A stretch of 16,961 bases of DNA from a virus. Positions 1-16,961 of the stretch are shown in pieces. The stretch is taken from IMG/VR virus record IMGVR_UViG_3300029947_000044, positions 1 to 16,961 of that record; one strand, written 5' to 3'. Position numbers and translations under genes: made by a program. The first letter of the stretch is position 1; each line of letters begins with the position of its first letter. The notes below the pieces were generated by a model, which was not told the DNA's origin, made no database searches, and saw only the letters and a list, made by a program, of their open reading frames with translations.

Positions 1-81
1 GGAACACCATATCGTCGTTCTTCCGTTGGCTGCGCAAGAGCGGCAGGCGGTCGGACGATCCGAGCCTGGACGTGCCCAGGG
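1..81. repeat. Terminal overlap, left copy (identical to 16881-16961); signature of a circular or concatemeric assembly
   Basis: Read directly: ggaacaccatatcgtcgttcttccgttggctgcgcaagagcggcaggcggtcggacgatccgagcctggacgtgcccaggg occurs at both ends. Confidence 0.95.
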
Positions 82-602
82 TGAAGAAGCCCCACGCGCA
101 TCCCAGGCCATGCCCGGACCGTTACATCGCGGCGGCGATGGAGAAGGCCACTCCGTCGGAAAAGCTCATGATCCGGCTCGCGGCCGAGTGCGGCCTTCGG
201 CGCGGAGAGATCGCCCGCGTGCACAGCGACGACGTGGTGGCCGACAGCGTAGGCCGGTCGCTTATAGTGCGCGGCAAAGGCGACAAGCAGCGCATCGTGC
301 CGCTGCCGGACGATCTGGCCGCCGTCGTGGCGGCCGCGGACGGCTATCTGTTCCCCGGCCGGTTCGGCGGGCATGCCGAGGAGTCCTACATCGGGGACCA
401 CATCAGCCATCTGCTGCCGGACGGGTACGCCGCGCACACGCTGCGCCACCGGTTCGCAACCACGGCCTACGCCGCCACACACGACCTGTTCGTGGTCGCG
501 GAACTGCTCGGCCATGAGTCCGTGGAGACCACGGAGCATTACGTGGCGATGCCGGATGGACGTCTGAGGGAGGCCACGGCGGCCGTCCGGCTCGTGGGCT
601 AA
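1..602 (+). CDS. int: Tyrosine recombinase / phage integrase, C-terminal catalytic part. It continues the ORF that starts at 16652; the whole protein is 276 aa.
   Basis: The frame starting at base 3 reads NTISSFFRWLRKSG... with no start codon and matches the frame at the right end. Catalytic signature is present: R (AECGLRRGEI), K (VRGKGDKQR), HxxR (AHTLRHRFAT), H (LLGHESVETT), Y (TEHYV). Stop TAA at 600-602. Confidence 0.9.
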   Translation, partial: NTISSFFRWLRKSGRRSDDPSLDVPRVKKPHAHPRPCPDRYIAAAMEKATPSEKLMIRLAAECGLRRGEIARVHSDDVVADSVGRSLIVRGKGDKQRIVPLPDDLAAVVAAADGYLFPGRFGGHAEESYIGDHISHLLPDGYAAHTLRHRFATTAYAATHDLFVVAELLGHESVETTEHYVAMPDGRLREATAAVRLVG

Positions 603-6304: not shown

Positions 6305-6690
6305 TATTTGCCTTTCACTTGTTCGAGTGTTTTGTCGATGAATGCCTGGTAGATCTGCGTCCATTGCGCTTCGGTCGATGCGACGCCGTTGTTGACGAAG
6401 AGCCGCGGCTTGATGCGGCGTTTCGGCCAGCCGTAGTTGACGGGGCCGGCGTATGGCACGGCCTTGCGGCCGGCGCGGATGACGCCGGCTCGTTTCGTCG
6501 CGCCGACGCGGAGCGATCCGGCGAGTTTGCCGGTCTCGCCGCGTGGCGCGAGGTTTCGGACGGCGGGCAGGGCGGTTTGAGCTGCCTCGCGGTTCACTTC
6601 CTTCAGGTCGTTCATGTCCGCGCCGGCCTTGCGCATCGTCTGCACGAAACGTTTCTGGCCGACGACCATCAATGCCTTGTCAGCCATCAC
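6304..6690 (-). CDS. HK97 gp10-like head-tail joining / neck protein (about 127 aa)
   Basis: APRGETGKLAGSLRVG...GRKAVPYAGPVNYGWP...PRLFV matches the gp10-family pattern (ap.dTG.L..Si.v...v.YA..vEfG...p.f). The start is GTG 6690 or ATG 6687, overlapping the upstream stop. Confidence 0.65.
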   Translation of the reverse strand: MMADKALMVVGQKRFVQTMRKAGADMNDLKEVNREAAQTALPAVRNLAPRGETGKLAGSLRVGATKRAGVIRAGRKAVPYAGPVNYGWPKRRIKPRLFVNNGVASTEAQWTQIYQAFIDKTLEQVKGK

Positions 6691-7100
6691 TCACCCGCGT
6701 AGGCCGTGTGCGCGACGTTCGTGACGGCGAAGCTCAGGTCGTTCGTGTTCTGTGATTTCACGTCGCCGCCGATGGCGATCGGCGCGACGGTGACGTTGAA
6801 GGTCCACTGGATCTTGCCGGTCTTGTTCGGCACGAATTGGGCGGGGAGTGTCTGGCCGGCATGGTCGAAGAGCCAGACGGCCAGACCGTTCTCGCTGAAA
6901 TCGTCGCCGACGGTGCCCTCGAACGTCCATGTGGTCGTGGTGTTCGTCTCCTCGCTGCCGTCGAGGTAGGTGGTGGGGTCGTCGCTGCTGTTCGACGGGT
7001 TCAGTTGCGCCTTGGTCAGGTCGGCGCTGAAGTCCCTGCCGTTGTCGGTGTCGGTGATTTTGAAGATGCCTGGGCCGAGCGTGCGGATTTTTCCGGCCAT
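6687..7100 (-). CDS. Major tail protein (137 aa)
   Basis: GGAAGGA RBS. The beta-rich sequence begins MAGKIRTLGPGIFKITD..., typical of small siphovirus tube proteins. It lies upstream of the chaperones. Confidence 0.55.
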   Translation of the reverse strand: MAGKIRTLGPGIFKITDTDNGRDFSADLTKAQLNPSNSSDDPTTYLDGSEETNTTTTWTFEGTVGDDFSENGLAVWLFDHAGQTLPAQFVPNKTGKIQWTFNVTVAPIAIGGDVKSQNTNDLSFAVTNVAHTAYAGE

Positions 7101-7114
7101 GGTTATGGTCCTTC

Positions 7115-7501
7115 CTATGATTCTGATTCTGTTTCTTCGATTTCCAAAGCGTTCAATGTGACCTGGTAGGCGGCGAGCGTGCCGCTGCCGGCCAGGCTCC
7201 AGCTCGCGGGCGTGGCCTTTTGGAGGTTCAGGCCCTTGCCGGCGAGTCGGTCGAGCGCGGCGAGGATGTCATCGATGGCCGATGACTGCGTGGCCGGCGT
7301 TCCGGCGATGACGTCCAGCGTCCATGTCGGTGTCGGAGGTCCCCATGTCGCCCACTCCACGGTCGGGGGTTCGATGAAGACCGCGACTTTGCCGGCCGTC
7401 GGGCGGACCAGCTGCGCGTCGATGCTGACGCTGCTCACGAGTCCGTCGAGCATGTCGGTGAGCGTGTCCATGAGCGCGGCGCGTTGTTCCTGGATGTTCA
7501 T
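7115..7501 (-). CDS. Head-tail connector component (tail-terminator or stopper-like, 128 aa); function uncertain
   Basis: ATGA overlap with the upstream gene. It sits between the gp6-like adaptor and the major tail protein. No diagnostic motif was recognised. Confidence 0.4.
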   Translation of the reverse strand: MNIQEQRAALMDTLTDMLDGLVSSVSIDAQLVRPTAGKVAVFIEPPTVEWATWGPPTPTWTLDVIAGTPATQSSAIDDILAALDRLAGKGLNLQKATPASWSLAGSGTLAAYQVTLNALEIEETESES

Positions 7502-7830
7502 GCGATCACCATTCCCCCGGTGAGCACGCCGGCGGCGCGGAGTTTAGGCCAGACCGAGCGGAGCGGGTCGGTGGAGATGCGGAAAGGTTCCACGGTCGAG
7601 TCGCCAACGTCCATGACGCCGAGGCGCGCGTCACGCATGTTGAACAGGTCGGCCGCGCAGGAAACGATGCAGTCGGCCAGCAGATCGTCATCCACGGTGG
7701 CGGTGCCGACGGCGCGTGCGACGTATTGGCGTGCGGCCGCGAGTTTGACCGTGAGTCTGTCGTCCTCTCCGGCCGGAACGCCAACCTCGTCGCGGAGCCG
7801 TTGCATGAGGGTGTTGTCGGCGATCATCAT
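7498..7830 (-). CDS. Head-tail adaptor (phage gp6-like connector, 110 aa)
   Basis: ATGA overlap with the capsid gene stop. The N-terminal pattern (ADNTLMQRLRDEVGVPAGEDDRLTVKLAAARQYV) is typical of gp6-like head-tail connectors. It lies directly after the capsid gene. Confidence 0.6.
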   Translation of the reverse strand: MMIADNTLMQRLRDEVGVPAGEDDRLTVKLAAARQYVARAVGTATVDDDLLADCIVSCAADLFNMRDARLGVMDVGDSTVEPFRISTDPLRSVWPKLRAAGVLTGGMVIA

Positions 7831-9386
7831 GCCGTCGCGAACTTCACCGGGATCAAGCCGTCGGCATGGGTCGTGGCTACGGCCATGTACCCGTAGACGC
7901 TGTAGCTGTTGGTCAGTCCCGTCACGTCCCCGTCCGTCAGCTGTGCGGGGCCGCCGGATTCCCAGATGGTCACGGCTGCCGGGTCGATGAAGCTGGCCAG
8001 ACCGGCATCGGCGTTCGGCAGAAGCACGACCGGGACTCGCATGAATGTGCCGGCCACGCCGGTAAGGTCGAAGCTGCCGATGGTGTCCGAGCCATCGCCG
8101 CTGAGATTAAAGAAACGATCACCGGTGTCCTTGAGTTTCACGAGCGCCTTGAGCACGTCTTTGGAGACCGCGAGGCGGGTCAGCGACACGTTTCGGGTGT
8201 CGGCCAGTTCGGACGCGTCGATGATGAGTGACACCCAGTTGTCGATGGTCATTTTCGCCAGCGACGGCGCGTCGAGCTTGTTGGCGTCATGCGCCGCGTC
8301 ACGCTGCGCCTTGATCTCCGCGTAAAGGTGGTCGCGGACGGCCTTTTCGGTGGCTTTCGCGTAGGCGTTCTGCAGTGCGCTCAGGGCGGTGTTGAGCATC
8401 GGCGTGGTGGACCGTTCGATTGTCTGGCGGGACAGGGTGGTGTAGCCGCCGTAGGTGTTGATGTCGGCCGTCTTGGTGCCGAAGGCGACTTTGCCGAAGG
8501 AGAGCGCGGAGCCTTCGGTCTCCTGTTTGCCGACTGCGGTGGTGTCGGAGGTCACGACATGGTATTCCATGCTCATGCCGGTTGCCGGGAGCGTGTCATG
8601 GGTCAGGAGTTGGGAGACCTTGCGGCGGTCCTCGATGAGTTTGAGGTCGTCGGCGATCCATGTGGCGGTGTTGCCGGTGTCTTTGACGGAGATCAGGTCG
8701 CGGCATTCCTTCATCACGTTCATGGCCTGTTCGTCGCCGCGTGCGAGGGCGCGCAGGTATTCGCCGTGGTCCCGGTACATGCCGCCGATGGCCGTGGGGG
8801 CGGTTTTCGTTCCCATCTTGCTGATTTCGGCCTTGATGCCGCGCTGTTCCTCCTGCATGGACTGGATCAAGTCCATCATTTCTTCGGTGCTTTCCATGTT
8901 TTCCTTTCTTTGTTCCACGGTGGCCGAAGCCGATTTGGTCATTTTCGCGTTCTGATAGGCTGGCCAGCTTACGATGCTGGTTTCGAGCAGGCGGACCTTT
9001 CTGCGGTGCGTGATGCCGTCGCGGTCCTTTGCCGATTCGATGGGGATGAAGCCGACAGAGAAGCTGTCGATGGCTCCGTCGCGGATCAGGGTCATCGCGT
9101 CGCGGCCTCGGGTGGTGTCGCTGATTCGCGCGGTGATGCGCAGTCCGTCGTCCGTGCTTTCCGCCTTGGTGATGCGGCCGATGGTCTCGCCGTGTTCAAA
9201 GCAGAGTTTTGCTTCGTCGATGCCGTCGAAGACGCAATCGCGGTCGAAGGTCTCGGCTCCGTCCCAGGTGTCGATGATGTCGCCGAAAGGCACTGCGATG
9301 CCATCGACGATGGAATCGCCGTCAGCGGTGTCGGCAGAGCGGAGTTTCAGGCCTTTCCATGTGATTTCACGTTTTTCGATGTTCAT
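7827..9386 (-). CDS. Fused HK97-family prohead protease (S78) + scaffold-like linker + HK97-fold major capsid protein (519 aa)
   Basis: Residues 1 to about 155 carry prohead-protease motifs (FEHGETIGRI; DGAIDSFSVGF; ETSIVSWPAYQNA). Residues from about 160 to 205 form a charged coiled-coil (EEMMDLIQSMQEEQRGIKAEISK). The remainder resembles an HK97-type capsid C-terminus. No separate protease or capsid ORF exists between the portal and the connectors. Confidence 0.8.
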   Translation of the reverse strand: MNIEKREITWKGLKLRSADTADGDSIVDGIAVPFGDIIDTWDGAETFDRDCVFDGIDEAKLCFEHGETIGRITKAESTDDGLRITARISDTTRGRDAMTLIRDGAIDSFSVGFIPIESAKDRDGITHRRKVRLLETSIVSWPAYQNAKMTKSASATVEQRKENMESTEEMMDLIQSMQEEQRGIKAEISKMGTKTAPTAIGGMYRDHGEYLRALARGDEQAMNVMKECRDLISVKDTGNTATWIADDLKLIEDRRKVSQLLTHDTLPATGMSMEYHVVTSDTTAVGKQETEGSALSFGKVAFGTKTADINTYGGYTTLSRQTIERSTTPMLNTALSALQNAYAKATEKAVRDHLYAEIKAQRDAAHDANKLDAPSLAKMTIDNWVSLIIDASELADTRNVSLTRLAVSKDVLKALVKLKDTGDRFFNLSGDGSDTIGSFDLTGVAGTFMRVPVVLLPNADAGLASFIDPAAVTIWESGGPAQLTDGDVTGLTNSYSVYGYMAVATTHADGLIPVKFATA

Positions 9387-10486
9387 TGTTCGTCTCCGTT
9401 TCCGATTGTCGGCAGTCCTTCCTTGCGACGCACGTCGTCGATGGTGAGGAATCCCGCTTCGATTGCCGTCTTGTAGGCGCTGTAGCGGTCGCTCATGTTC
9501 GCTCGTTGGGAGCTGTCCCAGTCGAATTTTGCGGTGCGGCCGCGGGGCAGGAGCCTGTTGAAGATTTCCTCGATCTCGCCGGTGTAGGCGGCGAGCGTGT
9601 AATCCGCGAATTCGATCCAGCTTTGCTCAATGTTCGAGTAGGTGATGTTCGACCCGTCGACGGCGGCGAGCATGATGCTTGCCGGTATGCCGAGCAGGCG
9701 GGCGATCTGCGTGGTGTCGAATTTCTGCGTTTCAAGGAATTGCAGGTCGGCGGGCTTCATGTCGAGGGGCACGTATTCCAGTGCTTTGCCGAGCACTTTG
9801 ACGTCGCCGGCGGTGCCGTCGCTTTTCCAGGCTTCCTTCGCCTGCTGTGCGGTTTCCTTCGTGATGTTCTCGGTGGTGCGTAGGTAGCCTTTGAGGTTCG
9901 ACCCGTCTGTGAAGAATCGGGCCTTGTAGTCGCGTGCGAGGCGTGCGCCCTCGATTTCCTCGCGTGCCGCGGAGATGGGGCCGAGTCCGCGCAGACGACC
10001 GGGGACGTTGAGGAATTTGCTGTGCACGATGTCGTTCGGCGTGTAGGCATGTCCGCTGTAGGAGAATCGCAGGTCTGGGCGTGCCGGATCGTCGCTTTCG
10101 TCTTTGACGGTCACGTATTGCGGCGGCAGGACCTCGCACGTCACGATCTCGCCCTGCCAGTCGCGCACGATGCGGGTGAAGGCGTTGCCGTCGAGCACAA
10201 GCGAGGCCACGATGTCGGCGATGAAGTCGCGGCGGGAGCGTGAGACGTCCGGTTGCAAGACCAGCGGGCTCACGTCCGGCAGGTCGCGGCCTCCGCGCTG
10301 CTCGACTATCGGCAGGCCGGTGATGGCGGTCTGCAACACCTGCACGCCGCGAAACACGGTGGACAGTTGGAGCGGTTCGCTGTCCGGGAGACGTGACGGC
10401 GGTTTGACGCCTTCCGGCATGTCAGTGCCTTCCGTGCCGCGCGTGAGCACGCGGCCGGCGAGCTTCATGCGTTGCCAAATGTTCAT
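9383..10486 (-). CDS. Portal protein (HK97 family, 367 aa)
   Basis: It lies between TerL and the protease-capsid gene, with an ATGA overlap on the latter. Size and sequence character fit Phage_portal family proteins. Confidence 0.8.
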   Translation of the reverse strand: MNIWQRMKLAGRVLTRGTEGTDMPEGVKPPSRLPDSEPLQLSTVFRGVQVLQTAITGLPIVEQRGGRDLPDVSPLVLQPDVSRSRRDFIADIVASLVLDGNAFTRIVRDWQGEIVTCEVLPPQYVTVKDESDDPARPDLRFSYSGHAYTPNDIVHSKFLNVPGRLRGLGPISAAREEIEGARLARDYKARFFTDGSNLKGYLRTTENITKETAQQAKEAWKSDGTAGDVKVLGKALEYVPLDMKPADLQFLETQKFDTTQIARLLGIPASIMLAAVDGSNITYSNIEQSWIEFADYTLAAYTGEIEEIFNRLLPRGRTAKFDWDSSQRANMSDRYSAYKTAIEAGFLTIDDVRRKEGLPTIGNGDEQ

Positions 10487-10508
10487 GTCGCCGACGATAT
10501 GGCCGTGG

Positions 10509-10566
10509 GTCTGTCATGGCCAAAAAAATTGTGACAATCGGTGACAGACGGTGACAGACGGTGACA
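10509..10566. repeat. Four GTGACA boxes with exact 10-bp phasing (10531, 10541, 10551, 10561), an A7 tract (10522-10528) and an inverted copy GTCTGTCA (10509-10516)
   Basis: Read directly: gtctgtcatggccaaaaaaattGTGACAatcgGTGACAgacgGTGACAgacgGTGACAcg, located in the 82-bp TerL-portal gap. Confidence 0.9.
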
Positions 10567-10568
10567 CG

Positions 10569-12002
10569 TCAGAAGATTTGCAGGGCTCCGTCGGCAGGCA
10601 GGTGGTGCGCGCCCCAAGAGGCCAGCATGGATGATTCGATCGGCGAGGTCAGTCCGGTGCTTCCGCGTCGTGTGACGCGCCATGCGTCGCCGCTCCATGT
10701 GCGCGCGCAGTTGGCCGCGCTTGCGTCGAGTTCGGCATCGGAGGCGTGGCGGATCAACCCGTTCTGCAGTCCGCTGACGAATGCCTGGCCGACGGCGAGG
10801 TAGTCGGATGATTGCATGGCGATGAAGTCGATCAGCGGGTCGCCTGCTTCGTCGGTCATGGACGCGAGCCGGTCGTGCAGGTCCGCGTTCGGTCCTTTGC
10901 CGTCCATGACCAGGGGAGCGTGATAGGCGTCGCAGATTCGCATGATCTCGGCGGGTGCCATGCCGGTTCCGTCCAGGACTTCGAGCAGCTGGACGGTCAC
11001 GGTGCCGTCATGGTCGAGGATCGCGGCCGAGATTGACGTGTGCGTGGCGTCCACATCGACGGCCGCGGCGATGACGATGCGTCTGCCGTCGATCTGGTCG
11101 GGTGTGATCGGCGTGGCCGATGTCGATTGCCAGAGGGCTTCTGGTATGACGCGCTCGGCCACGCCGTTGTCGCGGCGGTTGCCGAATGCGCGAGCCCAGC
11201 CGGCTTCGTTGCCGGCGAACTGCTCGCGGAAGTCACGGAGCTGTCGCGCGTCCCAGAGCAGGCCGGCGGCGGGATGCCATTTCAGAATCGTCGCGAAGTC
11301 CTCCGGGTCGGCGTCTTCCGGGATGCCAAAGTCGAACCAACATGTCCGTCCCGGCACGTTGCCGGCGCGGAATGAATCGAGCAGGCCGTTGAGGAAAGTG
11401 GAGTCGGCGGTGCCTTCCGTCGATGTGATCCAGATCTGCGGTTGCACTCCGGTGAAATGGAGGCGAGTGTTCATCGTCGGTGCCATGCCGTCGAGGATGA
11501 GCTTGCCGGTCTCATCGTCCAGGCTGAAAGCCTCATCGATGGTGAATTTGTCCATTTGCGTGCCGTGCCCAGCCACCTTGGTGACGGCGAGAGGGCAAAT
11601 GAAGCTGCCGTTGCGAAAACGTTGCTCCATGCCGCCGTTGGAGAGCCGCGGTTTGAGGGCGAATGGGGCGAGCGCCGACTTGGAGAGCTGTTGTACGAAG
11701 TCCTTGAAATGCTTTTCGGCGTCCTTGCCTGTTTGCGCGAGGTAGTAGATCTTCCGGTCGGAGCCGAGCAGGGCATTGCGGGTGTCCTCCGTGTCGATGA
11801 GGGTGCTCTTGCCGCATTGGCGCGGAGTGGACAGCACGACGCGGTCGTAGAAATATGTGCCGGTGGCCGGGTCGATTTCTCCGGCCACGTCAGCGACGTA
11901 CCGTTGCCATGGCAAAAGCGGTTTGCCGAGCATTTCGGCGGTGCGGGCCACCATGCCGCCGTCGGTCGGCCGTGATTCGTCACGTTTCGTGCCGCCACGC
12001 AT
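10569..12002 (-). CDS. terL: Terminase large subunit (about 477 aa)
   Basis: Walker A-like STPRQCGKST followed by a C-terminal nuclease-type region, in canonical position. Start is ATG 12002; the alternative is GTG 12014 overlapping the TerS stop. The upstream part of track ORF 10569..12104 overlaps TerS. Confidence 0.88.
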   Translation of the reverse strand: MRGGTKRDESRPTDGGMVARTAEMLGKPLLPWQRYVADVAGEIDPATGTYFYDRVVLSTPRQCGKSTLIDTEDTRNALLGSDRKIYYLAQTGKDAEKHFKDFVQQLSKSALAPFALKPRLSNGGMEQRFRNGSFICPLAVTKVAGHGTQMDKFTIDEAFSLDDETGKLILDGMAPTMNTRLHFTGVQPQIWITSTEGTADSTFLNGLLDSFRAGNVPGRTCWFDFGIPEDADPEDFATILKWHPAAGLLWDARQLRDFREQFAGNEAGWARAFGNRRDNGVAERVIPEALWQSTSATPITPDQIDGRRIVIAAAVDVDATHTSISAAILDHDGTVTVQLLEVLDGTGMAPAEIMRICDAYHAPLVMDGKGPNADLHDRLASMTDEAGDPLIDFIAMQSSDYLAVGQAFVSGLQNGLIRHASDAELDASAANCARTWSGDAWRVTRRGSTGLTSPIESSMLASWGAHHLPADGALQIF

Positions 12003-12010
12003 GGGCACGT

Positions 12011-12331
12011 TCACTTGTTGGCCTTCGCGTCGGCGATGAAGCTGGTGAGAGTCGGGTCGAGCTGAGGCTGTTCCGGATACATGGCTTTGAGTTCCTGGAA
12101 CCACGTCAGCAGAGACGTCATGTTGCGGCTGATTTCACGGCCTTTGCTGTTTTGACTGTCGATGTTCCTGGCGATGGACAGCATGGACTTGCAAATATAA
12201 GTCGCTTCTGGCGTCAGGGTCTTCCCGTCGATGAAGCTTTTGATGAGATTCATGGTCGCGGCTTCCTGGAGTCCGGCGGTGCCATACGGGTGTTCGTATT
12301 CCTCGAATCCTTCCAACATTCCTTGATTCAT
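12011..12331 (-). CDS. Probable terminase small subunit (106 aa; 121 aa if GTG 12376 is used)
   Basis: A small ORF immediately upstream of TerL and abutting it. ATG 12331 has an AAGGA RBS; GTG 12376 has none. No diagnostic motif was found, so the call rests on position. Confidence 0.5.
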   Translation of the reverse strand: MNQGMLEGFEEYEHPYGTAGLQEAATMNLIKSFIDGKTLTPEATYICKSMLSIARNIDSQNSKGREISRNMTSLLTWFQELKAMYPEQPQLDPTLTSFIADAKANK

Positions 12332-12436
12332 GTTTCGTTTTCCTTGGTTTTCCAACGTTTTCACGCTTTTTTGCACGGCTCTGGGGGGAGAAAAGACTGG
12401 GCGCGGGGTCTCGCTTTGGATTGATTCTTTAAAAAA

Positions 12437-13156
12437 TCACCAGCGCGGACGCGCCGTCGTCGCCGTCGGCGGGATGGTGCGCAATCCGAGGGCGGCGAGG
12501 CGCCTTCGTCGCGTCTGCTGACGTGCCTCCACGTTCTCTTGAGAGAGACGGAGCGAGTACCACTGTCTCACCAGCCTGCGATACAGTTCGTTCCGCGCAC
12601 GCGCCATGCTTTCCTCGTAGCCCGGGTCGAGGATATGCAGGTCGTAGTCGAGTGCGATCCATTCGGCGAGCATGTGCGGATGATGGCGGCTGGTAGGGAT
12701 GGTGCGTATCAGCCATACGTCTATCGGGTCGCTGCTCCTGGCGAAGTGGCGGTAGGCGGCTGACCATGCCATCGCCACGGCGCGACGCTGTTCCATGTCA
12801 TCGTCGTCGATGTTGAGCGCGGTGGAGAGCGCTGACCATGACACGACTGGATCGGTCGCCTTGGCGTGCTCGGCGATGTAGTCCACTGCCTCGCGGTCAC
12901 ATGAGCCCGGTGGACAGACGATCATGTGCAGTCGAGCGCCATAGCCGAAGAGCACGCGGTCCTGCCGGCTCGCGTTGCAATGCTTGCAGGCGCGGCGGAT
13001 GTTCGGCACGGTGTCCTTGCCGCCGGCGCTGAACGGGATGATGTGGTCATCCTCGGTCGCCTTGACTGTGCATCCCGGCATCTCAAGCCAGCACCGGTCG
13101 CCGTATCGTGCGATGACCTCGCTTCTGATACGAGGATTGATTGTCTGTCTTCTCAT
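12437..13156 (-). CDS. HNH endonuclease with a C-terminal domain of unknown function (239 aa)
   Basis: Start ATG 13156 with a GAAAGGAAAGG RBS and an ATGA overlap on the upstream gene. HNH motif: CWLEMPGC...DHIIPFSAGGKDTVPNIRRACKHCN. It is adjacent to the terminase genes, as in HK97-like cos phages. Confidence 0.85.
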   Translation of the reverse strand: MRRQTINPRIRSEVIARYGDRCWLEMPGCTVKATEDDHIIPFSAGGKDTVPNIRRACKHCNASRQDRVLFGYGARLHMIVCPPGSCDREAVDYIAEHAKATDPVVSWSALSTALNIDDDDMEQRRAVAMAWSAAYRHFARSSDPIDVWLIRTIPTSRHHPHMLAEWIALDYDLHILDPGYEESMARARNELYRRLVRQWYSLRLSQENVEARQQTRRRRLAALGLRTIPPTATTARPRW

Positions 13157-13347
13157 GCCTTTCCTTTCGCTCGTTGCGTCAAGATCCATCCGTTCACGTC
13201 CTGCTCGGCATAGCGGATTGCATTGCCGATTCTGATTGGCGGTGGTCCGATGATTGGGATTGACTGCCGCCATCTGATTAGCGTCCTTTCGCTGACGTTC
13301 AGGCGTTCCGCGGTTTCCGCCGTGGTCAACATGCGGATGCGCGTCAT
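13153..13347 (-). CDS. MerR-like/excisionase-family HTH DNA-binding protein (64 aa)
   Basis: LTTAETAERLNVSERTLIRWRQ...IRIGNAIRYAEQDVNGWI is the HTH_17/Xis pattern. ATGA overlaps occur at both ends. Confidence 0.65.
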   Translation of the reverse strand: MTRIRMLTTAETAERLNVSERTLIRWRQSIPIIGPPPIRIGNAIRYAEQDVNGWILTQRAKGKA

Positions 13348-13544
13348 GCCTTGGCCTTGGCTCTGAGCAGTGCGGCGATCTGTTCCATCTTCGCGGCGAC
13401 TATCGGCCAGTCGGCTTTCGCTATCGGCCCCCAGTAGAGTTGCGGGCCGCTCGGGCTTTGCGAGATCTGGCCAATCTGCAGGTCATCCGGCTGAGGGGTC
13501 TTGTGGTCCTCGATGTCCAGTGCAATGCGAATCTGCGGTTTCAA
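13344..13544 (-). CDS. Hypothetical protein (66 aa, TTG start)
   Basis: Stop-start coupled with both neighbours (TTGA and ATGA). Composition looks protein-like. No recognised domain. Confidence 0.55.
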   Translation of the reverse strand: MKPQIRIALDIEDHKTPQPDDLQIGQISQSPSGPQLYWGPIAKADWPIVAAKMEQIAALLRAKAKA

Positions 13545-13867
13545 ATCAGTGTTCCTTCTTTATACGTGTTCTTCTTTGTTTGTTTTGACCGGTAGGGCGT
13601 CCAGCTCGTCGCCCACTTGCGGAAGTCGCGGCAGTCGATGCGGAACGCGCCACATCGATATATCGGCAATCCCTGCGATTTGAGAGCGAGTACCGCGTAG
13701 ACGTTCGGTTCGTTCAGCGCGTGCACGATCTGCCAGATTTCGATGTCGGTCCGTTGATTGTTCGATGCGATTCGGTCTACCGCATCGGCGAAGCCGAGCA
13801 TGAGCTGTTGGCGTGATTCCGCTGGATAGTGCAGGACTTCGCTCAGGGATGGCTTAATCGACGACAT
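13541..13867 (-). CDS. Hypothetical protein (108 aa)
   Basis: An ORF in the operon frame with a 14-nt overlap on the upstream gene. No recognised domain. Confidence 0.6.
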   Translation of the reverse strand: MSSIKPSLSEVLHYPAESRQQLMLGFADAVDRIASNNQRTDIEIWQIVHALNEPNVYAVLALKSQGLPIYRCGAFRIDCRDFRKWATSWTPYRSKQTKKNTYKEGTLI

Positions 13868-14135
13868 AGGCCCACATTCCGCACCATTTCGCGAGTGGTT
13901 TCAGCAGAGCGTCGGAATCGTACATCTTGCCGCCTGTAGGCGATTTGTAGACGGGTTTCGGAGCCTTGCCGAACGCGAGCTTGAGAGCGAGCTGGAGCTG
14001 GTTGTCGTTCAATCCGGACGTCTTCAGGAGCTGTTGACGTGACGTGTTCGCTTTTCGTTTAATGTTCCCATCAATCATCGGGAGACTGAGTGCGATCTGT
14101 GCCTTGAGTTTCTCGGGGAATGTTGCTCTACTCAT
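13854..14135 (-). CDS. Hypothetical protein (93 aa), possibly DNA-binding
   Basis: ATG 14135 is preceded by GGAAAGGATGGG. It is basic and helical (SRQQLLKTSGLNDNQLQLALKL). It is the first gene downstream of the non-coding repeat region. Confidence 0.6.
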   Translation of the reverse strand: MSRATFPEKLKAQIALSLPMIDGNIKRKANTSRQQLLKTSGLNDNQLQLALKLAFGKAPKPVYKSPTGGKMYDSDALLKPLAKWCGMWAYVVD

Positions 14136-14204
14136 TTCCCATCCTTTCCGTAGATTTCGGTTGGTGAAAGCTTGAGAGGTCAAGACCTAGAATCAGTCGA
14201 AGAA

Positions 14205-14390
14205 GATTCCCGGCCGAGAATTTCGGCCGAGATGGTCAACTGATTCCAAAGGTCTCGTTTCGGTCGGAGCCGCGCCGTCGATAACAAGAGCGGCCGAAGC
14301 CGCCGGGAATGGTCCCCAATCAGACCACGGCCGAAGCCGCCTATGGTCGCCCGATTCCGCCTTAATCGACGGCCTGAAAGGGTCGGGAGC
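14205..14390. repeat. Iteron-like cluster of short direct repeats in a region of about 320 bp that lacks convincing coding sequence
   Basis: CGGCCGAGA occurs twice (14211, 14224). The 14-mer CGGCCGAAGCCGCC occurs twice (14291, 14328), each copy followed by (A/T)ATGGTC. ATGGTC also follows the second CGGCCGAGA copy (14224). GATTCC occurs three times (14205, 14242, 14353). Confidence 0.7.
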
Positions 14391-14502
14391 TAAACTTCGT
14401 CTCTCAAATAGCGCGATAGCCACGCGCCTGGCGTTACCGGTCGCTAACCCGGCTCAGCGGTGGCAGGGGTACGCCATACGCCCCATAAGCCGTTAAGTTT
14501 TG

Positions 14503-14619
14503 TCAGTCTTCGTTCGTTAGGAAGTCGCCCAGACGAACAATCGCGAGCACCAGCCCCAACATGACAAACACGAAGGGGCTTAGCAGAATCAGCAGCACGG
14601 TCTGAACAAAGCGCCTCAT
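14503..14619 (-). CDS. Small hydrophobic (single-pass membrane) peptide, 38 aa
   Basis: Not in the ORF track because it is under 60 aa. Sequence: MRRFVQTVLLILLSPFVFVMLGLVLAIVRLGDFLTNED. Its ATG overlaps the upstream stop as ATGA (14616-14619). Confidence 0.5.
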   Translation of the reverse strand: MRRFVQTVLLILLSPFVFVMLGLVLAIVRLGDFLTNED

Positions 14620-14768
14620 TCCTCGAAGCATCGCGCGACCTGCCTTTCCAAGTCCTCAAGCTGGATGCCGTTGAGCGGGACGCGCAAGGTCATGCCGTCC
14701 TCCGTCTCCACGATCAGCTCGAAGAAGCAATCCTTCTTGCCTGGCACACGCCTTGCCGTGACAGTCAT
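14616..14768 (-). CDS. Hypothetical protein (50 aa)
   Basis: Only the last 50 codons of track ORF 14616..14981 look protein-like (MTVTARRVPGKKDCFFELIVETEDGMTLRV...). ATG 14768 forms an ATGA overlap with the upstream stop. Confidence 0.55.
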   Translation of the reverse strand: MTVTARRVPGKKDCFFELIVETEDGMTLRVPLNGIQLEDLERQVARCFEE

Positions 14769-15001
14769 TCCTGTGTCCCTTCCCATTCGCGGCGGGCACG
14801 CCGCGCGTGCGTCATCGCCTTGTTGATTGAGGCCTTCATCTTTTGAAGGTCGCCCATGTCCAAGCCATCGAACCCGAACGTGCTTCCGGCCACCTTGATG
14901 TGGCAGGCGAAGCGGTAGGGGTTGCCGCCGGTGCATTCCGACGGGTCGATGTCCTGCACCTGGAAGTAATTGCTGGTGCATTCCGGATCAAAAACGCTCA
15001 T
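14765..15001 (-). CDS. Hypothetical protein (78 aa)
   Basis: AAGGAG RBS 7 nt upstream of ATG 15001. Protein-like composition. No recognised domain. Confidence 0.7.
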   Translation of the reverse strand: MSVFDPECTSNYFQVQDIDPSECTGGNPYRFACHIKVAGSTFGFDGLDMGDLQKMKASINKAMTHARRARREWEGTQE

Positions 15002-15108
15002 TTCACTGCTCCTTGATTCATGGATGGACGGTTAGGCCCCTTCCTCCGCAGCGATAGGCTTGTAATCGCACAAACCAAACCTTTCAAACAACGAAGGAAG
15101 GAAGAGTA

Positions 15109-15705
15109 ATGAGTGACGAAACCACATTTAGATTGATGGGCATGAACAAAATTCTTGAATGGCTGTCCGCAGATTGGTGGAATGGCCTCGGAGTGATCCT
15201 GGCAATCGTCGGCGTTCCTAGCCTGTTCACCATCATTCGGGATTTCGTGTGTAAAGTCCACCACACAGACGACGAAGAGACTGAACCGATATCCAACGAG
15301 CAGATAGACGCCATGCTTCCCGCAACAACGCCGGCAACTCACAAGCCGCCTATGCCGCCCAAGTTCAGAATCGACATCGACGAAAGCGGGGCGTGCTTCG
15401 TCCTCACCAACATCGGAGGCCCTGCGCGTAACATCTCCGTGTTTGCCGAAGCGGTCGAGGGAACCTACACGAACACATGGAACAACTATCTTGGAAGAAC
15501 CGACAGCAAACCATGGGCGCTGTCCGACTTTCATTTCTTCAACATTGAACTGCCGAAACTGCGCGAGGAGCGACAGCAAGGCGGCACCACATTCTTTGAC
15601 GGACACGTGGAGGACGGGGACGGCAAAGCCCATTACCCCATCAAATTCACCATCGTCTGGGACGGATGCCCTGAACCCGTGGAGATCATTGAAACCATCA
15701 ACTAA
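15109..15705 (+). CDS. Membrane-anchored protein (198 aa), moron-like; candidate superinfection-exclusion or defence function
   Basis: Strong RBS (GAAGGAAGGAAG). N-terminal TM helix (WWNGLGVILAIVGVPSLFTII), a Pro/Thr linker, then a beta-rich domain. It runs opposite to the surrounding early operon, and the local region is AT-richer. The antisense track ORF 14998..15840 is Cys/Arg-rich noise. Confidence 0.7.
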   Translation: MSDETTFRLMGMNKILEWLSADWWNGLGVILAIVGVPSLFTIIRDFVCKVHHTDDEETEPISNEQIDAMLPATTPATHKPPMPPKFRIDIDESGACFVLTNIGGPARNISVFAEAVEGTYTNTWNNYLGRTDSKPWALSDFHFFNIELPKLREERQQGGTTFFDGHVEDGDGKAHYPIKFTIVWDGCPEPVEIIETIN

Positions 15706-15898
15706 CATCCGGGGCCTCCGTAATCCGGCCCGACAACGCTTTGCCAAGCTCGTCGCGCAATGCTTCGGCCTCGGAACGATCCAGAGGAACAACGAGGTTC
15801 CCCACAGAACCGGCACGCGAGAACTCGACGAAGAACACATCAGGGCAATGCGCCAGACGGCTCACATGCACCGACACACGTTCCACGCCAGCCATCAC
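15698..15898 (-). CDS. Hypothetical early protein (about 65 aa)
   Basis: Stop-start coupled to the cro-like gene (GTGATG at 15893-15898). Its 3' end overlaps the convergent plus-strand gene by 8 nt. Confidence 0.55.
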   Translation of the reverse strand: MMAGVERVSVHVSRLAHCPDVFFVEFSRAGSVGNLVVPLDRSEAEALRDELGKALSGRITEAPDVS

Positions 15899-16131
15899 GC
15901 CACCTCCAAAGGCTCTCGGCCGAGCACGAAATCAGTGGAAACGTCGAAGAAATCGGCGATACGCGACACATCACGCAAGGTGAAATTCTTCAGGCCGCGA
16001 AGCTTGTTCGACAACGCTTGCTCACTCATTCCTACAGAATCTGCCAGCTCTCGCTGCGTGACGTGATTTGCACGCAGTCGGCCGCGGACCTGCTTGGCGA
16101 TCGTACGCTGCTCCTGAATTACTAAACTCAT
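15895..16131 (-). CDS. Cro-like Xre-family HTH regulator (78 aa)
   Basis: HTH_3 pattern (VTQRELADSVGMSEQALSNKLRG). It is divergent from the repressor gene and is the first gene of the long minus-strand operon. Confidence 0.8.
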   Translation of the reverse strand: MSLVIQEQRTIAKQVRGRLRANHVTQRELADSVGMSEQALSNKLRGLKNFTLRDVSRIADFFDVSTDFVLGREPLEVA

Positions 16132-16215
16132 AGTGAATTATTTAAGCACATGGAAACCGTTGAGTGATAACTTAGGCGTGTCGCACAAACTAAACCAATG
16201 GTTTATAATTGCGGT
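16132..16215. promoter_or_regulatory. Divergent switch region with back-to-back, apparently leaderless promoters and a palindromic operator candidate
   Basis: TATAAT at 16204-16209 ends 7 nt before the A of ATG 16216. On the minus strand a TAAATAAT box (16137-16144) ends 6 nt before ATG 16131. A perfect 15-nt palindrome TAAACCAaTGGTTTA (16191-16205) overlaps the plus-strand -10 box. AGTGA(A/T)(T/A)A occurs twice (16132, 16162). Confidence 0.5.
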
Positions 16216-16626
16216 ATGTCAACAACTATGATGCCGAAACCGCGACTGGACAAGCAGCAGATTGCGGTGGCAAATATCAAACTGCTGCTGGACGTTTCGC
16301 ATAGCAAAAAGAAGGATCTGGCCGAATACCTGGGCAAAGTACCTCAGTCGTTGTCGAAGATGCTTCAGAATAAGCAAACGTGGTTCTTTGAGGATATGTG
16401 CAACGCCGCCGATTTCTTCGGCGTTGGCCTTGAGACATTGGTGAGAACCGATTTAACGCCAATGAAGGCCGAGCAGATATTAAAAAACCGCCGTTCCGAT
16501 AATGGGAACGACGGTCAACTAGTAGCGGGGCATGGATTTGAACCATGGACCTCTGGGGACACCAGAGGTCCATGGTTCAAATCCATGGGACTTCTGAGCT
16601 TATCCAAGCTCATTTTAGCGGCCTGA
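16216..16626 (+). CDS. Xre-family HTH repressor, episomal (full-length) form, 136 aa, ending ...LSLSKLILAA
   Basis: HTH (KKDLAEYLGKVPQSLSKMLQNKQ) and a C-terminal helix motif ADFFGV shared with the cro-like protein (ADFFDV). Residues 106-123 are encoded by the tRNA-like palindrome. The track start at 16198 lies upstream of the -10 box, and the ORF from it reads across that box, so ATG 16216 is preferred. Confidence 0.75.
   Translation: MSTTMMPKPRLDKQQIAVANIKLLLDVSHSKKKDLAEYLGKVPQSLSKMLQNKQTWFFEDMCNAADFFGVGLETLVRTDLTPMKAEQILKNRRSDNGNDGQLVAGHGFEPWTSGDTRGPWFKSMGLLSLSKLILAA
16523..16556 (-). other. Candidate attP common core: tRNA gene 3' half (variable loop, T-arm, acceptor CCCCGCT, discriminator A) read on the minus strand
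   Basis: The minus strand reads CCAGAGGTC-CATGG-TTCAAAT-CCATG-CCCCGCT-A. Only this arm continues into a plausible acceptor stem with an A73 discriminator. It is adjacent to int. The anticodon is absent, so tRNA identity cannot be called. Confidence 0.6.
16531..16587. repeat. Perfect 26-bp inverted repeat with a 5-nt spacer (ggaca), built from a tRNA variable-loop + T-arm sequence
   Basis: catggatttgaaccatggacctctgg (16531-16556) is the exact reverse complement of ccagaggtccatggttcaaatccatg (16562-16587). Each arm contains a CATGG-TTCAAAT-CCATG T-arm. Confidence 0.95.
16595..16616 (+). terminator. Weak hairpin + T-tract (tGAGCTT-atcc-AAGCTCa-TTTT) between the attP palindrome and int; possible attenuator
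   Basis: A 7-bp stem with a 4-nt loop, followed by TTTT. It lies inside the last codons of the repressor ORF. Confidence 0.25.
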
Positions 16627-16651
16627 ACAATTCGGGGGTGCATGATGGATC

Positions 16652-16961
16652 ATGAGAAACAAGATCAGCGCACCGGTCCCATGGCGCAGAAGCATCGAAG
16701 GGTGGACTGACACCCTCAGGGCGGCCGGCCTATCAGCACAGACAATCAAAAGCCGTCGATACAAGATGGTCCATCTTGCGACGCTGTTCATGCCTTCGGG
16801 TCCCACGGACGTGACCACGGAGCAGATCGTGCAGGTGTTCGCAAGGCAGCAATGGAAACCGGAGACGCGCAAGGCGTACCGGAACACCATATCGTCGTTC
16901 TTCCGTTGGCTGCGCAAGAGCGGCAGGCGGTCGGACGATCCGAGCCTGGACGTGCCCAGGG
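16652..16961 (+). CDS. int: Tyrosine integrase, N-terminal (SAM-like/core-binding) part; continues at base 1 of the window
   Basis: ATG 16652 is the first start after an in-frame stop at 16643. It reads MRNKISAPVPWRRSIEGWTDTLRAAGLSAQTIKSRRYKMVHLATLF...QWKPETRKAYRNTISSFFRWL. There is no stop before the window end, and the frame matches 3..602. Confidence 0.88.
   Translation, partial: MRNKISAPVPWRRSIEGWTDTLRAAGLSAQTIKSRRYKMVHLATLFMPSGPTDVTTEQIVQVFARQQWKPETRKAYRNTISSFFRWLRKSGRRSDDPSLDVPR
16881..16961. repeat. Terminal overlap, right copy (identical to 1-81)
   Basis: Exact 81-nt identity with the window start. Confidence 0.95.

What the first reader, a model, noticed from the sequence alone, without database searches (positions are those of the whole stretch)
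15895..16961. attP lies inside the repressor ORF, whose episomal form ends in an ssrA-like ...LILAA tail: candidate integration-dependent immunity switch
**Seen in the sequence**
- The cro-like gene (minus strand) and an Xre repressor (plus strand, 16216-16626) are divergent.
- int starts 25 nt after the repressor stop, on the same strand.
- The only tRNA-derived (attP-type) sequence in the genome, 16523-16587, sits within repressor codons 103-124, downstream of the HTH domain.
- The full-length ORF terminates in LSLSKLILAA.
- The contig is in the circular attP form, so this is the 'viral' version of the gene.

**Established knowledge**
- In mycobacteriophages BPs, Brujita and Charlie (Hatfull laboratory, 2013) attP is located within the repressor gene.
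- Integration there truncates the repressor and removes a C-terminal ssrA-like degradation tag. Only the prophage-encoded form is stable and confers immunity.
- C-terminal LAA is the classic ClpXP/ssrA degron ending.

**Inference**
- The same logic probably operates here, where the lysis-lysogeny decision depends on whether integration occurs.
- This phage is a much smaller, 16.9-kb genome with a tRNA-derived attP.
- The size relation would be similar (136 aa, falling to roughly 105-115 phage-encoded residues).
- If the host is not a mycobacterium, this would be a new lineage carrying such a switch.
Basis: partly seen in the sequence, partly recalled or inferred. Interest (0 to 1): 0.9.

Follow-up and report, generated by a model that had tools for sequence, protein, structure and literature searches.

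The report
Bifidobacterium phage integration-dependent repressor switch
This small Bifidobacterium phage has its chromosomal attachment site inside its repressor gene, so integration cuts off a degradation-tag-like tail; the reading is well supported, but the same design was already predicted for close relatives in 2018.

Summary
The window is a circular 16,880-bp phage. It has a divergent cro-like gene, a 136-aa XRE-type repressor (16216-16626) and an integrase starting 25 nt after the repressor stop.

The 3' part of tRNA-Met lies antisense inside repressor codons 102-114 (core 16520-16557). A contig from another sample is 100% identical to the window over 10.3 kb up to base 16557, then runs into tRNA-Met. 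About 40 related prophages show the same junction next to metA. All encode a repressor ending ...WTSGL*, whose stop codon comes from the tRNA anticodon loop.

Excised forms carry 19-24 extra residues. Of 25 distinct tails, 17 end in L-[A/T/V]-A, although they use two reading frames.

This is an integration-dependent immunity cassette. Its integrase is 42% identical to that of mycobacteriophage BPs.

It is not a new lineage. Mavrich et al. 2018 predicted this switch for ~18-kb tRNA-Met prophages of B. breve, and Gordonia phages of similar size also have it. Proteolysis remains untested.

A side finding may be new: a conserved hairpin made from the tRNA-derived core and an inverted copy of it.

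The parts
15895..16131 (-). cro-like gene (78 aa), transcribed divergently from the repressor
   Evidence: ORF listing. Pfam HTH_3 at E 7e-9. It shares the ADFF-V motif with Rep, seen as inverted repeats I3 and I5. The role as Cro is inferred from position only.
16132..16215 (.). 84-bp cro-rep control region, with a TATAAT at 16204-16209 six nt before the rep ATG (suggesting a leaderless rep mRNA) and ACTAAAC repeated at 16121 and 16189
   Evidence: Read directly from the sequence. The region is conserved in prophages L003 and L010. The strict sigma-70 scan found no promoter, so promoter function is inferred.
16216..16626 (+). Episomal (viral) form of the repressor gene: 136 aa, with a helical HTH domain at residues 11-95, a disordered region at residues 95-136, and the ending LILAA
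   Evidence: Sixty-four homologues, some carrying PF01381/PF13443 or named XRE regulators. AlphaFold model and Foldseek hits to SinR, P22 c2, 434 and lambda cI HTH domains.
16486..16516 (-). Terminator-like hairpin plus T-run on the minus strand, directly downstream of the tRNA 3' end and lying inside the rep linker codons. It is a candidate phage-supplied terminator for the reconstituted tRNA-Met.
   Evidence: Terminator scan. Its position relative to the tRNA 3' end was read. Function is inferred.
16520..16557 (-). attP common core: the 3' part of tRNA-Met (anticodon-stem 3' strand to acceptor end) antisense to rep, covering codons 102-114 (...VAGHGFEPWTSG)
   Evidence: Identity with attR of prophages ends at 16557. 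It matches 37 of 39 bases of the published Bb423phi2/689b-1 core. The attL of L014 shows the left boundary.
16531..16587 (.). Perfect 26-bp inverted repeat with a 5-nt spacer. The left arm lies inside the core; the right arm (16562-16587) is phage-only and encodes RGPWFKSM of the tail.
   Evidence: RNA fold of 16500-16660, dominated by this hairpin: -73 kcal/mol, z -7.6. Across 11 distinct relatives 93% of cells pair, 4 pairs show compensatory changes, and loop length varies from 5 to 15 nt.
16558..16626 (+). Viral-only tail codons 115-136 (DTRGPWFKSMGLLSLSKLILAA) plus the stop codon. The LAA codons are at 16615-16623. On integration this segment is separated from rep and stays upstream of int at attL.
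   Evidence: Orphan tail segments sit at attL in L013-L017 and L022.
16652..16961 (+). Tyrosine integrase, 5' part (276 aa in all; continues at the window start)
   Evidence: Pfam Phage_integrase at E 6e-19. It is 42% identical to BPs gp32 over 278 aa, E 5e-62.
1..602 (+). Tyrosine integrase, 3' part. Bases 1-81 duplicate the window end. The C-terminus is ...AAVRLVG.

Best explanation
The region is the int-rep-cro cassette of a small temperate Bifidobacterium siphovirus, captured in its excised circular form. It is built as an integration-dependent immunity switch.

**Shown**
- The attP common core (16520-16557) is the 3' part of tRNA-Met, antisense inside the repressor ORF.
- Integration at the tRNA-Met beside metA splits the gene after codon 114.
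- The prophage gene then reads one host codon (Leu) and stops at a TGA supplied by the complement of the tRNA anticodon loop, giving a 115-aa protein.
- The 22 tail codons ending LILAA stay upstream of int at the other prophage end.
- The cut and the tail lie in a region predicted to be disordered, outside the HTH domain.

**Inferred, from the BPs paradigm and from conservation of the tail end**
- In the free phage, the promoter upstream of rep (probably giving a leaderless mRNA) transcribes rep and int together.
- The 136-aa repressor is recognised through its C-terminal LAA-like tag by ClpXP or a similar protease and does not accumulate, so lytic genes stay on.
- If the integrase acts first, the truncated stable repressor is made, shuts off the cro-side promoter, and int is cut off from the rep promoter.
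For: - **Circular attP form:** 81-nt terminal repeat.
- **Gene order and domains:**
- **The same phage seen integrated:** L011 is 100.000% identical to window 6228-16557 over 10,330 bp, then continues as tRNA-Met.
- **Many prophage junctions:** 40 loci have the core followed by the intact tRNA-Met remainder, with metA and the ATP synthase operon next to it where the flank is held. Hosts were identified by exact MetA matches as B. adolescentis and B. pseudocatenulatum. Other homologues are named B. longum and B. catenulatum.
- **Prophage form of the protein:** 62 representative proteins end WTSG+L. P0095 is the exact prophage form of this window's repressor.
- **Tail conservation:** 17 of 25 distinct long tails end L-[A/T/V]-A, although the middle of the tail is read in two frames (FKSM versus VQIH) and differs in sequence.
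- **Tail kept in lysogens:** orphan tail-coding segments remain open and LAA/LTA-terminated upstream of int at attL in six loci, five of them titled Bifidobacterium; L013 is a contig binned as Dysosmobacter.
- **Structure:** the tail and cut site are disordered and the HTH domain is intact.
- **Link to BPs:** the integrase is homologous to BPs gp32, E 5e-62.
- **Published precedent:** the same prediction for the same phage group (PMC6109161). The mechanism was shown experimentally in BPs (PMC4557955, PMC3694055).
Against: - No experiment exists in Bifidobacterium. Degradation, the identity of the protease, and the activity of either repressor form are all inferred.
- Some common tails end LTA or LVA rather than LAA.
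- The Bifidobacterium tmRNA tag could not be retrieved for comparison.
- The repressor has no detectable sequence similarity to BPs gp33 beyond the tRNA-encoded GFEP motif.
- The integrase lacks the ~65-residue C-terminal extension of BPs Int, and its end (VRLVG) is not a clear tag.
- An HTH_17 (excisionase-family) ORF at 13153-13347 could be an Xis, which BPs-type systems lack.
- Mavrich et al. saw no excision or induction of Bb423phi2 with mitomycin C.
Confidence: 0.78

Rival explanations
1. The architecture is real, but the tail is a neutral by-product. The attP simply happens to overlap the end of the repressor gene, both forms work equally well, and immunity does not depend on integration.
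For: - Most of the tail is just the translation of the inverted tRNA-like arm.
- LTA and LVA endings occur.
- The integrase has no clear tag.
- There is no functional evidence in this genus.
Against: - The last residues, which lie outside the palindrome, converge on L-[A/T/V]-A in 17 of 25 distinct tails, in two reading frames and with unrelated preceding sequence. This includes a variant with a different 46-aa tail ending YVLAA.
- The orphan tail segments stay open in lysogens from six loci, five of them titled Bifidobacterium.
- The same design is functional in BPs.
Confidence: 0.12
2. The selected feature in 16531-16587 is the nucleic-acid hairpin, not the peptide. As an mRNA hairpin or DNA cruciform between rep and int, it would control int expression, rep mRNA fate or recombination, and the tail would be secondary.
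For: - A 26-bp perfect stem; the fold of 16500-16660 that it dominates has z -7.6.
- Compensatory changes at 4 pairs across relatives, with loop length varying from 5 to 15 nt.
- No comparable palindrome at the BPs attP.
Against: - It cannot explain the conserved LAA end, which lies 9 codons beyond the stem.
- Several relatives carry 1-3 mismatches in the stem.
- Palindromes can homogenise themselves without selection.
- The sample is small (11 distinct sequences) and the arms were aligned by hand.
- This reading is compatible with the main explanation as an added layer; only the exclusive version is scored here.
Confidence: 0.07
3. The attP-form contig is an assembly artefact, or comes from the junction of tandem prophages rather than a free circular phage, so the long repressor would never be made during infection.
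For: Tandem prophages that regenerate a full-length tailed rep do exist inside chromosomal scaffolds (L006, L007).
Against: - The window closes on itself with an 81-nt overlap at unit length.
- Many independent 16-18 kb contigs from different samples carry tailed forms.
- Any excision or infection must pass through this form.
Confidence: 0.03

Closest known systems
tRNA-Met-integrated small prophages Bb423phi2 and 689b-1 of Bifidobacterium breve (Mavrich et al. 2018, Sci Rep 8:12772, PMC6109161)
   Same: - Same host genus and the same attB (tRNA-Met next to metA).
- Same common core: the window matches 37 of 39 bases of TGGTAGCGGGGCATGGATTTGAACCATGGACCTCTGGGT.
- Similar genome size (16.9 versus 18.2 kb).
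- int at attL and rep at attR.
- A predicted viral repressor with an extra ssrA-like C-terminal tail.
   Different: - The window is a naturally recovered excised form, whereas the published viral allele was reconstructed in silico.
- The tail here is 22 residues (DTRGPWFKSM...LILAA). The published extra length of 18 residues fits the YPRGPRSKPMPRLILSLAA type.
- The nearest lysogens found here are in the B. adolescentis and B. pseudocatenulatum group, not B. breve.
- Nucleotide identity to Bb423phi2 could not be measured because its sequence is not in the collections on hand.
Integration-dependent immunity of mycobacteriophages BPs, Brujita and Charlie (Broussard et al. 2013; PMC3694055, PMC4557955)
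   Same: - A three-gene int-rep / cro cassette with attP inside rep near its 3' end, overlapping the antisense of a tRNA 3' end.
- A viral repressor of 136 aa, by coincidence the same length as BPs gp33, and a shorter prophage form.
[quoted passage not shown]
- An integrase 42% identical to BPs gp32.
   Different: - The repressors show no detectable sequence similarity.
- Truncation removes 21 residues net, not 33.
- The window integrase lacks the N- and C-terminal extensions of BPs Int and has no clear tag.
- The BPs attP has no extended palindrome.
- A possible Xis-like HTH_17 ORF is present here.
Small-genome temperate Gordonia phages of cluster CW (Jeanie, McGonagall, GMA5, GRU3; Pope et al. 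2017, PMC5559632)
   Same: A ~17-kb siphovirus genome with a tyrosine integrase and a tRNA-derived attP (37 bp) inside the repressor gene, described as carrying integration-dependent immunity.
   Different: - The attB is tRNA-Lys of Gordonia terrae, not tRNA-Met.
- No repressor similarity was found in the phage collection.
- The window's portal is closest to 17-kb lytic Microbacterium phages, at 40% identity.

Membership tests
Integration-dependent immunity system (Broussard et al. 2013) | Compact cassette: int and rep adjacent on one strand, cro divergent, short control region between rep and cro | tested here: met
   cro-like gene 15895-16131 (-), rep 16216-16626 (+), int from 16652 (+), and an 84-bp intergenic region. 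The feature is as described in PMC3694055.
Integration-dependent immunity system (Broussard et al. 2013) | attP lies inside the repressor ORF near its 3' end | tested here: met
   The core 16520-16557 covers codons 102-114 of 136. The prophage junction is at 16557|16558 in L011, which is 100% identical to the window, and in 40 related loci.
Integration-dependent immunity system (Broussard et al. 2013) | Prophage-encoded repressor is shorter and lacks the C-terminal tail of the viral form | tested here: met
   115 aa (...WTSGL*) versus 136 aa. The only tailed copies in chromosomal scaffolds are at tandem-prophage junctions.
Integration-dependent immunity system (Broussard et al. 2013) | Viral repressor ends in an ssrA-like tag | tested here: met
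   It ends LILAA, and 17 of 25 distinct tails in relatives end L-[A/T/V]-A. This is a sequence-level test only. The host's own tmRNA tag was not available.
Integration-dependent immunity system (Broussard et al. 2013) | Tag-dependent proteolysis makes the viral form inactive; only the truncated form confers immunity | not testable with these tools
   This needs protein stability and immunity assays. It was shown for BPs (PMC4557955) but never for a bifidophage.
Integration-dependent immunity system (Broussard et al. 2013) | Integrase also carries a C-terminal degradation signal | tested here: inconclusive
   The window Int ends AAVRLVG. Relatives end RLAA (L018, L019, L021), RLAV, TLAG and TLQA. 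It lacks the ~65-aa C-terminal extension of BPs gp32.
Integration-dependent immunity system (Broussard et al. 2013) | No xis, cII or cIII | tested here: inconclusive
   The ORF at 13153-13347 (-) matches HTH_17, the excisionase-type HTH, at E 3e-10. Its role is unknown. No cII- or cIII-like hits were seen among the ORFs scanned.
BPs gp33 / gp32 protein families (homology) | Repressor homologous to BPs gp33; integrase homologous to BPs gp32 | tested here: not met
   Rep versus gp33 gives BLASTP E 8.5, with only the tRNA-encoded GFEP motif aligned, so this half is not met. Int versus gp32 gives 42% identity over 278 aa, E 5e-62, so this half is met. The system works like BPs but shares only the integrase by descent.
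tRNA-Met / metA-site small bifidoprophages (Bb423phi2, 689b-1; Mavrich et al. 2018) | [quoted passage not shown] | tested here: met
   tRNA-Met (CAT) is followed by an HTS/MetA gene in L002-L005 and L010. The window core matches 37 of 39 published bases.
tRNA-Met / metA-site small bifidoprophages (Bb423phi2, 689b-1; Mavrich et al. 2018) | ~18-kb genome with int next to attL and rep next to attR | tested here: met
   The circle is 16,880 bp. attL with int is seen in L013-L017 and L022. attR with rep is seen.
tRNA-Met / metA-site small bifidoprophages (Bb423phi2, 689b-1; Mavrich et al. 2018) | Nucleotide or protein similarity to Bb423phi2 or 689b-1 themselves | not testable with these tools
Functional tRNA gene (ARAGORN 'tRNA-Gln' 16522-16610, minus strand) | Full cloverleaf that matches the tRNA covariance model | tested here: not met
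   Rfam gives no tRNA hit at E<=1 in 16300-16800, only sub-threshold generic hairpin matches. The sequence is a tRNA 3' fragment plus its inverted copy.

The most novel reading that the evidence does not exclude
The long hairpin formed by the tRNA-derived attP core and its phage-only inverted copy (16531-16587) may be a functional element of the switch, not a relic. It is conserved with compensatory changes and a variable loop across Bifidobacterium phages, and it is absent from BPs.

One possibility is a double-stranded RNA structure in the rep-int transcript. Cleavage or ribosome stalling there would set int expression or truncate the rep mRNA. Another is a DNA structure that this small, arm-domain-less integrase needs for recombination.

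Either would add a nucleic-acid layer to integration-dependent immunity that has not been described.
Probability: 0.25. Interest if true: 0.5.

Novelty: new member of a known kind. Interest (0 to 1): 0.25.

Why it matters
The switch is a minimal lysis-lysogeny circuit in which site-specific recombination itself makes the decision.

This window and its relatives show the design is widespread in gut Bifidobacterium. Hosts seen here include B. adolescentis, B. pseudocatenulatum, B. longum, B. catenulatum and B. angulatum, plus several animal-associated species.

They also supply natural excised genomes that confirm the viral repressor allele, which had only been reconstructed in silico. This gives ready-made constructs for testing the switch in a genus where no temperate phage is yet tractable.

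The finding does not open a new question by itself.

Tried and rejected
- **Repressor against the phage collection:** a tblastn search of 50,697 GenBank phages found no match. A whole-window megablast found only short tape-measure hits to Microbacterium phages, so no isolated close relative is on hand.
- **Homology to BPs gp33:** none was detected.
- **Broussard et al. 2013 (PMC3557535):** the paper is not held. Its features were taken from PMC3694055 and PMC4557955 instead.
- **Host tmRNA tag:** no tmRNA gene is present in any fetched locus, and a literature search gave nothing specific.
- **Promoter scan:** the sigma-70 scan found no promoter in 15850-16961. The TATAAT before the rep ATG was read by eye and fails only the -35 criterion.
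- **ARAGORN 'tRNA-Gln':** rejected as an artefact.
- **Possible counter-examples:** P0096 and P0104 are tailed repressors listed on contigs of 374 and 233 kb. P0096 was resolved as a tandem-prophage junction. P0104 was not looked up.
- **Palindrome as the recombinase core (two inverted binding sites round the crossover):** rejected for two reasons. The spacer varies from 5 to 15 nt. The published attL/attR difference at the T-stem base places the crossover on the tRNA 3' side of that base.
- **Right arm as a second usable attP core:** considered and rejected. It lacks the acceptor-stem bases, and none of the six attL junctions uses it.
- **L001:** the core is followed by unrelated DNA, with no tRNA. 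This remains unexplained.
Full report
**1. What is in the sequence**

The window carries an 81-nt terminal direct repeat, so it is a 16,880-bp circle. It encodes a small siphovirus:
- an amidase and a holin;
- a tape-measure protein;
- a fused prohead protease and capsid protein;
- a portal, a terminase and an HNH endonuclease.

The portal is closest, at 40% identity, to 17-kb Microbacterium phages.

The flagged region holds three genes:
- a 78-aa HTH_3 protein on the minus strand at 15895-16131 (E 7e-9);
- after an 84-bp gap, a 136-aa ORF on the plus strand at 16216-16626, ending LSLSKLILAA;
- 25 nt further on, a 276-aa tyrosine integrase that starts at 16652 and wraps to base 602.

A TATAAT box lies at 16204-16209, six nt before the rep ATG. 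This suggests a leaderless transcript, and the box is conserved in related prophages. The strict promoter scan did not call it.

Pfam alone does not assign the 136-aa protein. Three results place it among phage-repressor-type HTH proteins:
- Homologues at 40-45% identity carry PF01381/PF13443, and others are named XRE regulators of B. longum and B. catenulatum.
- An AlphaFold model has a confident helical domain at residues 11-95 and a disordered region at residues 95-136.
- All its best PDB matches are Cro/C1-type domains such as SinR, P22 c2, 434 and lambda cI. The E-values are weak, but target-normalised TM-scores reach 0.81.

**2. The tRNA-derived block**

- 16520-16557 is the reverse complement of a tRNA 3' part, running from the anticodon-stem 3' strand to the acceptor end.
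- 16562-16587 is an inverted copy of 26 nt of it. The two form a perfect palindrome with a 5-nt spacer.
- ARAGORN's 'tRNA-Gln' call is an artefact, because Rfam finds no tRNA there.

**3. Where the phage integrates**

A protein search returned 64 repressor homologues. Fetching their contigs gave direct junctions.
- In L002-L005 and L010 the repressor gene is the last prophage gene. It runs into a minus-strand tRNA-Met (CAT), followed by metA (HTS) and the ATP synthase operon.
- Exact MetA matches name the hosts as B. adolescentis (L010) and B. pseudocatenulatum (L003).
- L011, from another sample, is 100.000% identical to window 6228-16557 over 10,330 bp. It then continues TTATGAGCCCAGCGAGCT, the rest of tRNA-Met. 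This window's own phage is therefore seen integrated, with the junction at 16557|16558 after codon 114.
- Across all fetched loci, 40 have the core followed by the intact tRNA remainder. Another 11 have the core plus GTTATGA followed by other DNA, apparently a second element at the same tRNA. L012, counted with that class, in fact ends inside the tRNA remainder.
- Every one of these encodes ...GHGFEPWTSGL*. The Leu and the TGA stop are the complement of the anticodon loop (TTATGA).

The other prophage end was found with the integrase. In L014 (B. angulatum MAG), L015 (B. biavatii), L016, L017 (B. phasiani), L022 (B. cebidarum) and L013, the order is host DNA, the core, the spacer, the inverted arm, an open tail-coding segment ending LAA or LTA, and then int.

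**4. Two forms of the protein**

- Among the proteins collected, 62 representatives end WTSG+L. P0095 is the exact prophage form of this window's repressor.
- Excised-form contigs of 16-18 kb carry long tails.
- Of 25 distinct long tails, 13 end LAA, 3 end LTA and 1 ends LVA. The remaining 8 are singletons that look like frameshifts, deletions or other junctions.
- The middle of the tail is the inverted arm read in either of two frames (…FKSM… or …VQIH…). The sequence between the arm and the end also differs, yet the end converges on (I/S)L(A/T)A.
- A variant keeps only 17 nt of the core and has an unrelated 46-aa tail. It still ends YVLAA and is followed by int.

This is the strongest available evidence that the terminal residues are selected.

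P0096 looked like a counter-example, because it is a tailed repressor on 137- and 374-kb scaffolds. There the tailed rep of one prophage is followed by int, the lysis genes and the tail genes of a second, non-identical prophage. The junction between tandem prophages regenerates an attP-like site.

**5. Mechanism**

*Shown*
- The attP lies in the repressor gene.
- Integration swaps a 22-residue LAA-terminated tail for a single Leu.
- The swap lies in a disordered region outside the HTH domain.
- int is separated from rep, and therefore from the rep promoter, in the prophage.

*Inferred*
- The tail is a ClpXP-type degron.
- The long form does not accumulate.
- Only the integrated phage makes stable repressor.

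The inference rests on experiments with BPs. There gp33-136 is degraded through its tag, gp33-103 is stable and active, an A135E change raises lysogeny, and an integrase mutant cannot lysogenise (PMC4557955, PMC3694055). It also rests on the tail conservation described above. Confidence in the full mechanism is about 0.78.

**6. Comparison with what is known**

*Mycobacteriophage BPs (L159)*
- The repressors are not detectably similar (E 8.5). The only aligned stretch is the tRNA-encoded GFEP motif.
- The integrases are 42% identical over 278 aa (E 5e-62). The recombination module is therefore shared by descent, and the repressor at most shares a fold.
- The window integrase lacks the N- and C-terminal extensions of BPs gp32. 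Its end, VRLVG, is not a clear tag, although relatives end RLAA, RLAV or TLAG.
- An HTH_17 ORF at 13153-13347 could be an excisionase, which BPs-type systems lack.

*Bifidobacterium prophages (Mavrich et al. 2018, PMC6109161)*
- The paper describes Bb423phi2 and 689b-1, ~18-kb B. breve prophages at the tRNA-Met beside metA with a 39-bp core. The window matches 37 of 39 bases of that core.
- No excision or induction of Bb423phi2 was seen with mitomycin C.

*Gordonia phages (Pope et al. 2017, PMC5559632)*
- About half of the Gordonia phages with tyrosine integrases have the same design. This includes the 17-kb cluster CW phages, whose tRNA-Lys attP lies inside the repressor gene.

The window is a new member of a described group, in a described host genus.

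**7. What this analysis adds**

(a) Natural excised genomes confirm the viral allele that had only been predicted, and the same phage is seen in both states.

(b) The group spans many Bifidobacterium species and at least nine tail types.

(c) The prophage stop codon is donated by the tRNA anticodon loop.

(d) A minus-strand terminator-like hairpin with a T-run (16486-16516) sits directly after the tRNA 3' end, inside the repressor linker codons. The phage apparently supplies a terminator for the tRNA it reconstitutes.

(e) The hairpin at 16531-16587:
- As RNA, the 161-nt stretch 16500-16660 folds at -73 kcal/mol, z -7.6, and the hairpin is its dominant element.
- In 11 distinct attP or attL sequences, 93% of cells pair and four pairs show changes on both sides. 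No shuffle of 500 reached the observed covariation score.
- The loop varies from 5 to 15 nt.
- The published attL and attR cores differ at one T-stem base, CCTTGG versus CCATGG. L014 has CCTTGG paired with CCAAGG in the right arm.
- It follows that this base is phage-derived at attL. The crossover therefore lies on the tRNA 3' side of it, plausibly in the T-loop, and the stem is maintained within phage DNA.
- BPs has no such palindrome.
- More distant relatives (integrase 57-58% identical; L018, L019, L021) have tRNA-Met in the sense orientation directly upstream of int. They have no palindrome and no LAA-ending frame. The right arm may therefore descend from an older attP orientation.
- Whether the hairpin acts as RNA, as DNA, or is only a self-homogenising relic is open. 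The sample is small and the arms were aligned by hand.

**8. Verdict**

Function is untested. Novelty is low, because the same switch has already been predicted for this phage group.

Noticed in passing
window 16531-16587; L014 9871-9927; L015 9870-9936; L006, L007, L017, L022, L116, L148, L149: The attP core and an inverted phage-only copy form a long hairpin that is conserved across relatives. Four pairs show compensatory changes and the loop varies from 5 to 15 nt. BPs has no equivalent. Function is unknown.
   Followed up: partly
window 16486-16516 (minus strand), T-run 16476-16485: A terminator-like hairpin sits immediately downstream of the tRNA 3' end, embedded in the repressor linker codons (KNRRSDNGNDGQ). 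Relatives with the linker KTAAP..GNGGQ appear to keep a hairpin there. It looks like a phage-supplied terminator for the reconstituted tRNA-Met.
   Followed up: partly
L003 10396-10402; L010, L011 and about 50 other loci: The stop codon of the prophage repressor (TGA), and its last residue (Leu), are the complement of the tRNA-Met anticodon loop (CTCATAA read as TTATGAG).
   Followed up: yes
L006 and L007 (scaffolds of 137 and 374 kb): Two non-identical prophages sit in tandem. The junction between them regenerates an attP-like site and a full-length LAA-tailed repressor for the upstream phage, so a double lysogen would make both repressor forms.
   Followed up: partly
L100, L103, L106, L115, L117, L119, L122, L127, L137, L140, L141 (just after the core): In 11 loci the core is followed by GTTATGA and then unrelated DNA of at least three kinds, instead of the rest of tRNA-Met. 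This suggests other integrative elements stacked at the same tRNA. The repressor still ends WTSGL*.
   Followed up: no
L160 3290-3470 (also L161, L162; 16.1-kb contigs): This variant phage has the same repressor N-terminal domain but keeps only 17 nt of the tRNA core. An unrelated 46-aa tail ending EDYVLAA follows, and then int. Its attB is unknown.
   Followed up: partly
L019 9829-10000; L021; L018: These more distant relatives (integrase 57-58% identical; B. imperatoris, B. olomucense and a contig binned as Collinsella) have an intact tRNA-Met in the sense orientation directly upstream of int. A terminator hairpin follows the tRNA, and there is no palindrome and no LAA-ending frame. This is the opposite attP orientation.
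   Followed up: partly
window 1-602 (Int C-terminus); L013-L022: Integrase C-termini in the group are short hydrophobic ends: VRLVG, VRLI, RLAV, TLAG and TLQA, with RLAA in L018, L019 and L021. They might be weak degradation tags, as reported for BPs Int.
   Followed up: partly
window 13153-13347 (minus strand): A 64-aa ORF matches HTH_17, the excisionase-type HTH (E 3e-10), just upstream of the HNH and terminase genes. It is a possible Xis, which BPs-type systems lack.
   Followed up: partly
window 15109-15705 (plus strand): A 198-aa ORF with no Pfam match lies on the opposite strand to the surrounding early genes. It is present in L011 and L012 but replaced by a smaller gene in L010 and L006-L009. 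It may be a variable accessory gene expressed from the prophage.
   Followed up: no
L001 640-1260 (start of a 623-kb scaffold): Here the core is followed by unrelated DNA (SRVVS* ending), with no tRNA detected and an Abi_2 gene nearby. This could be a scaffold join, a rearrangement or a secondary site. It remains unexplained.
   Followed up: no
P0023 (B. reuteri DSM 23975, 252-kb contig) and P0034: These repressor homologues have C-termini (…WGRRGLNPGPGDYESHALTD) that appear to read antisense through most of a different tRNA gene. This suggests the same repressor family paired with another tRNA attB.
   Followed up: no
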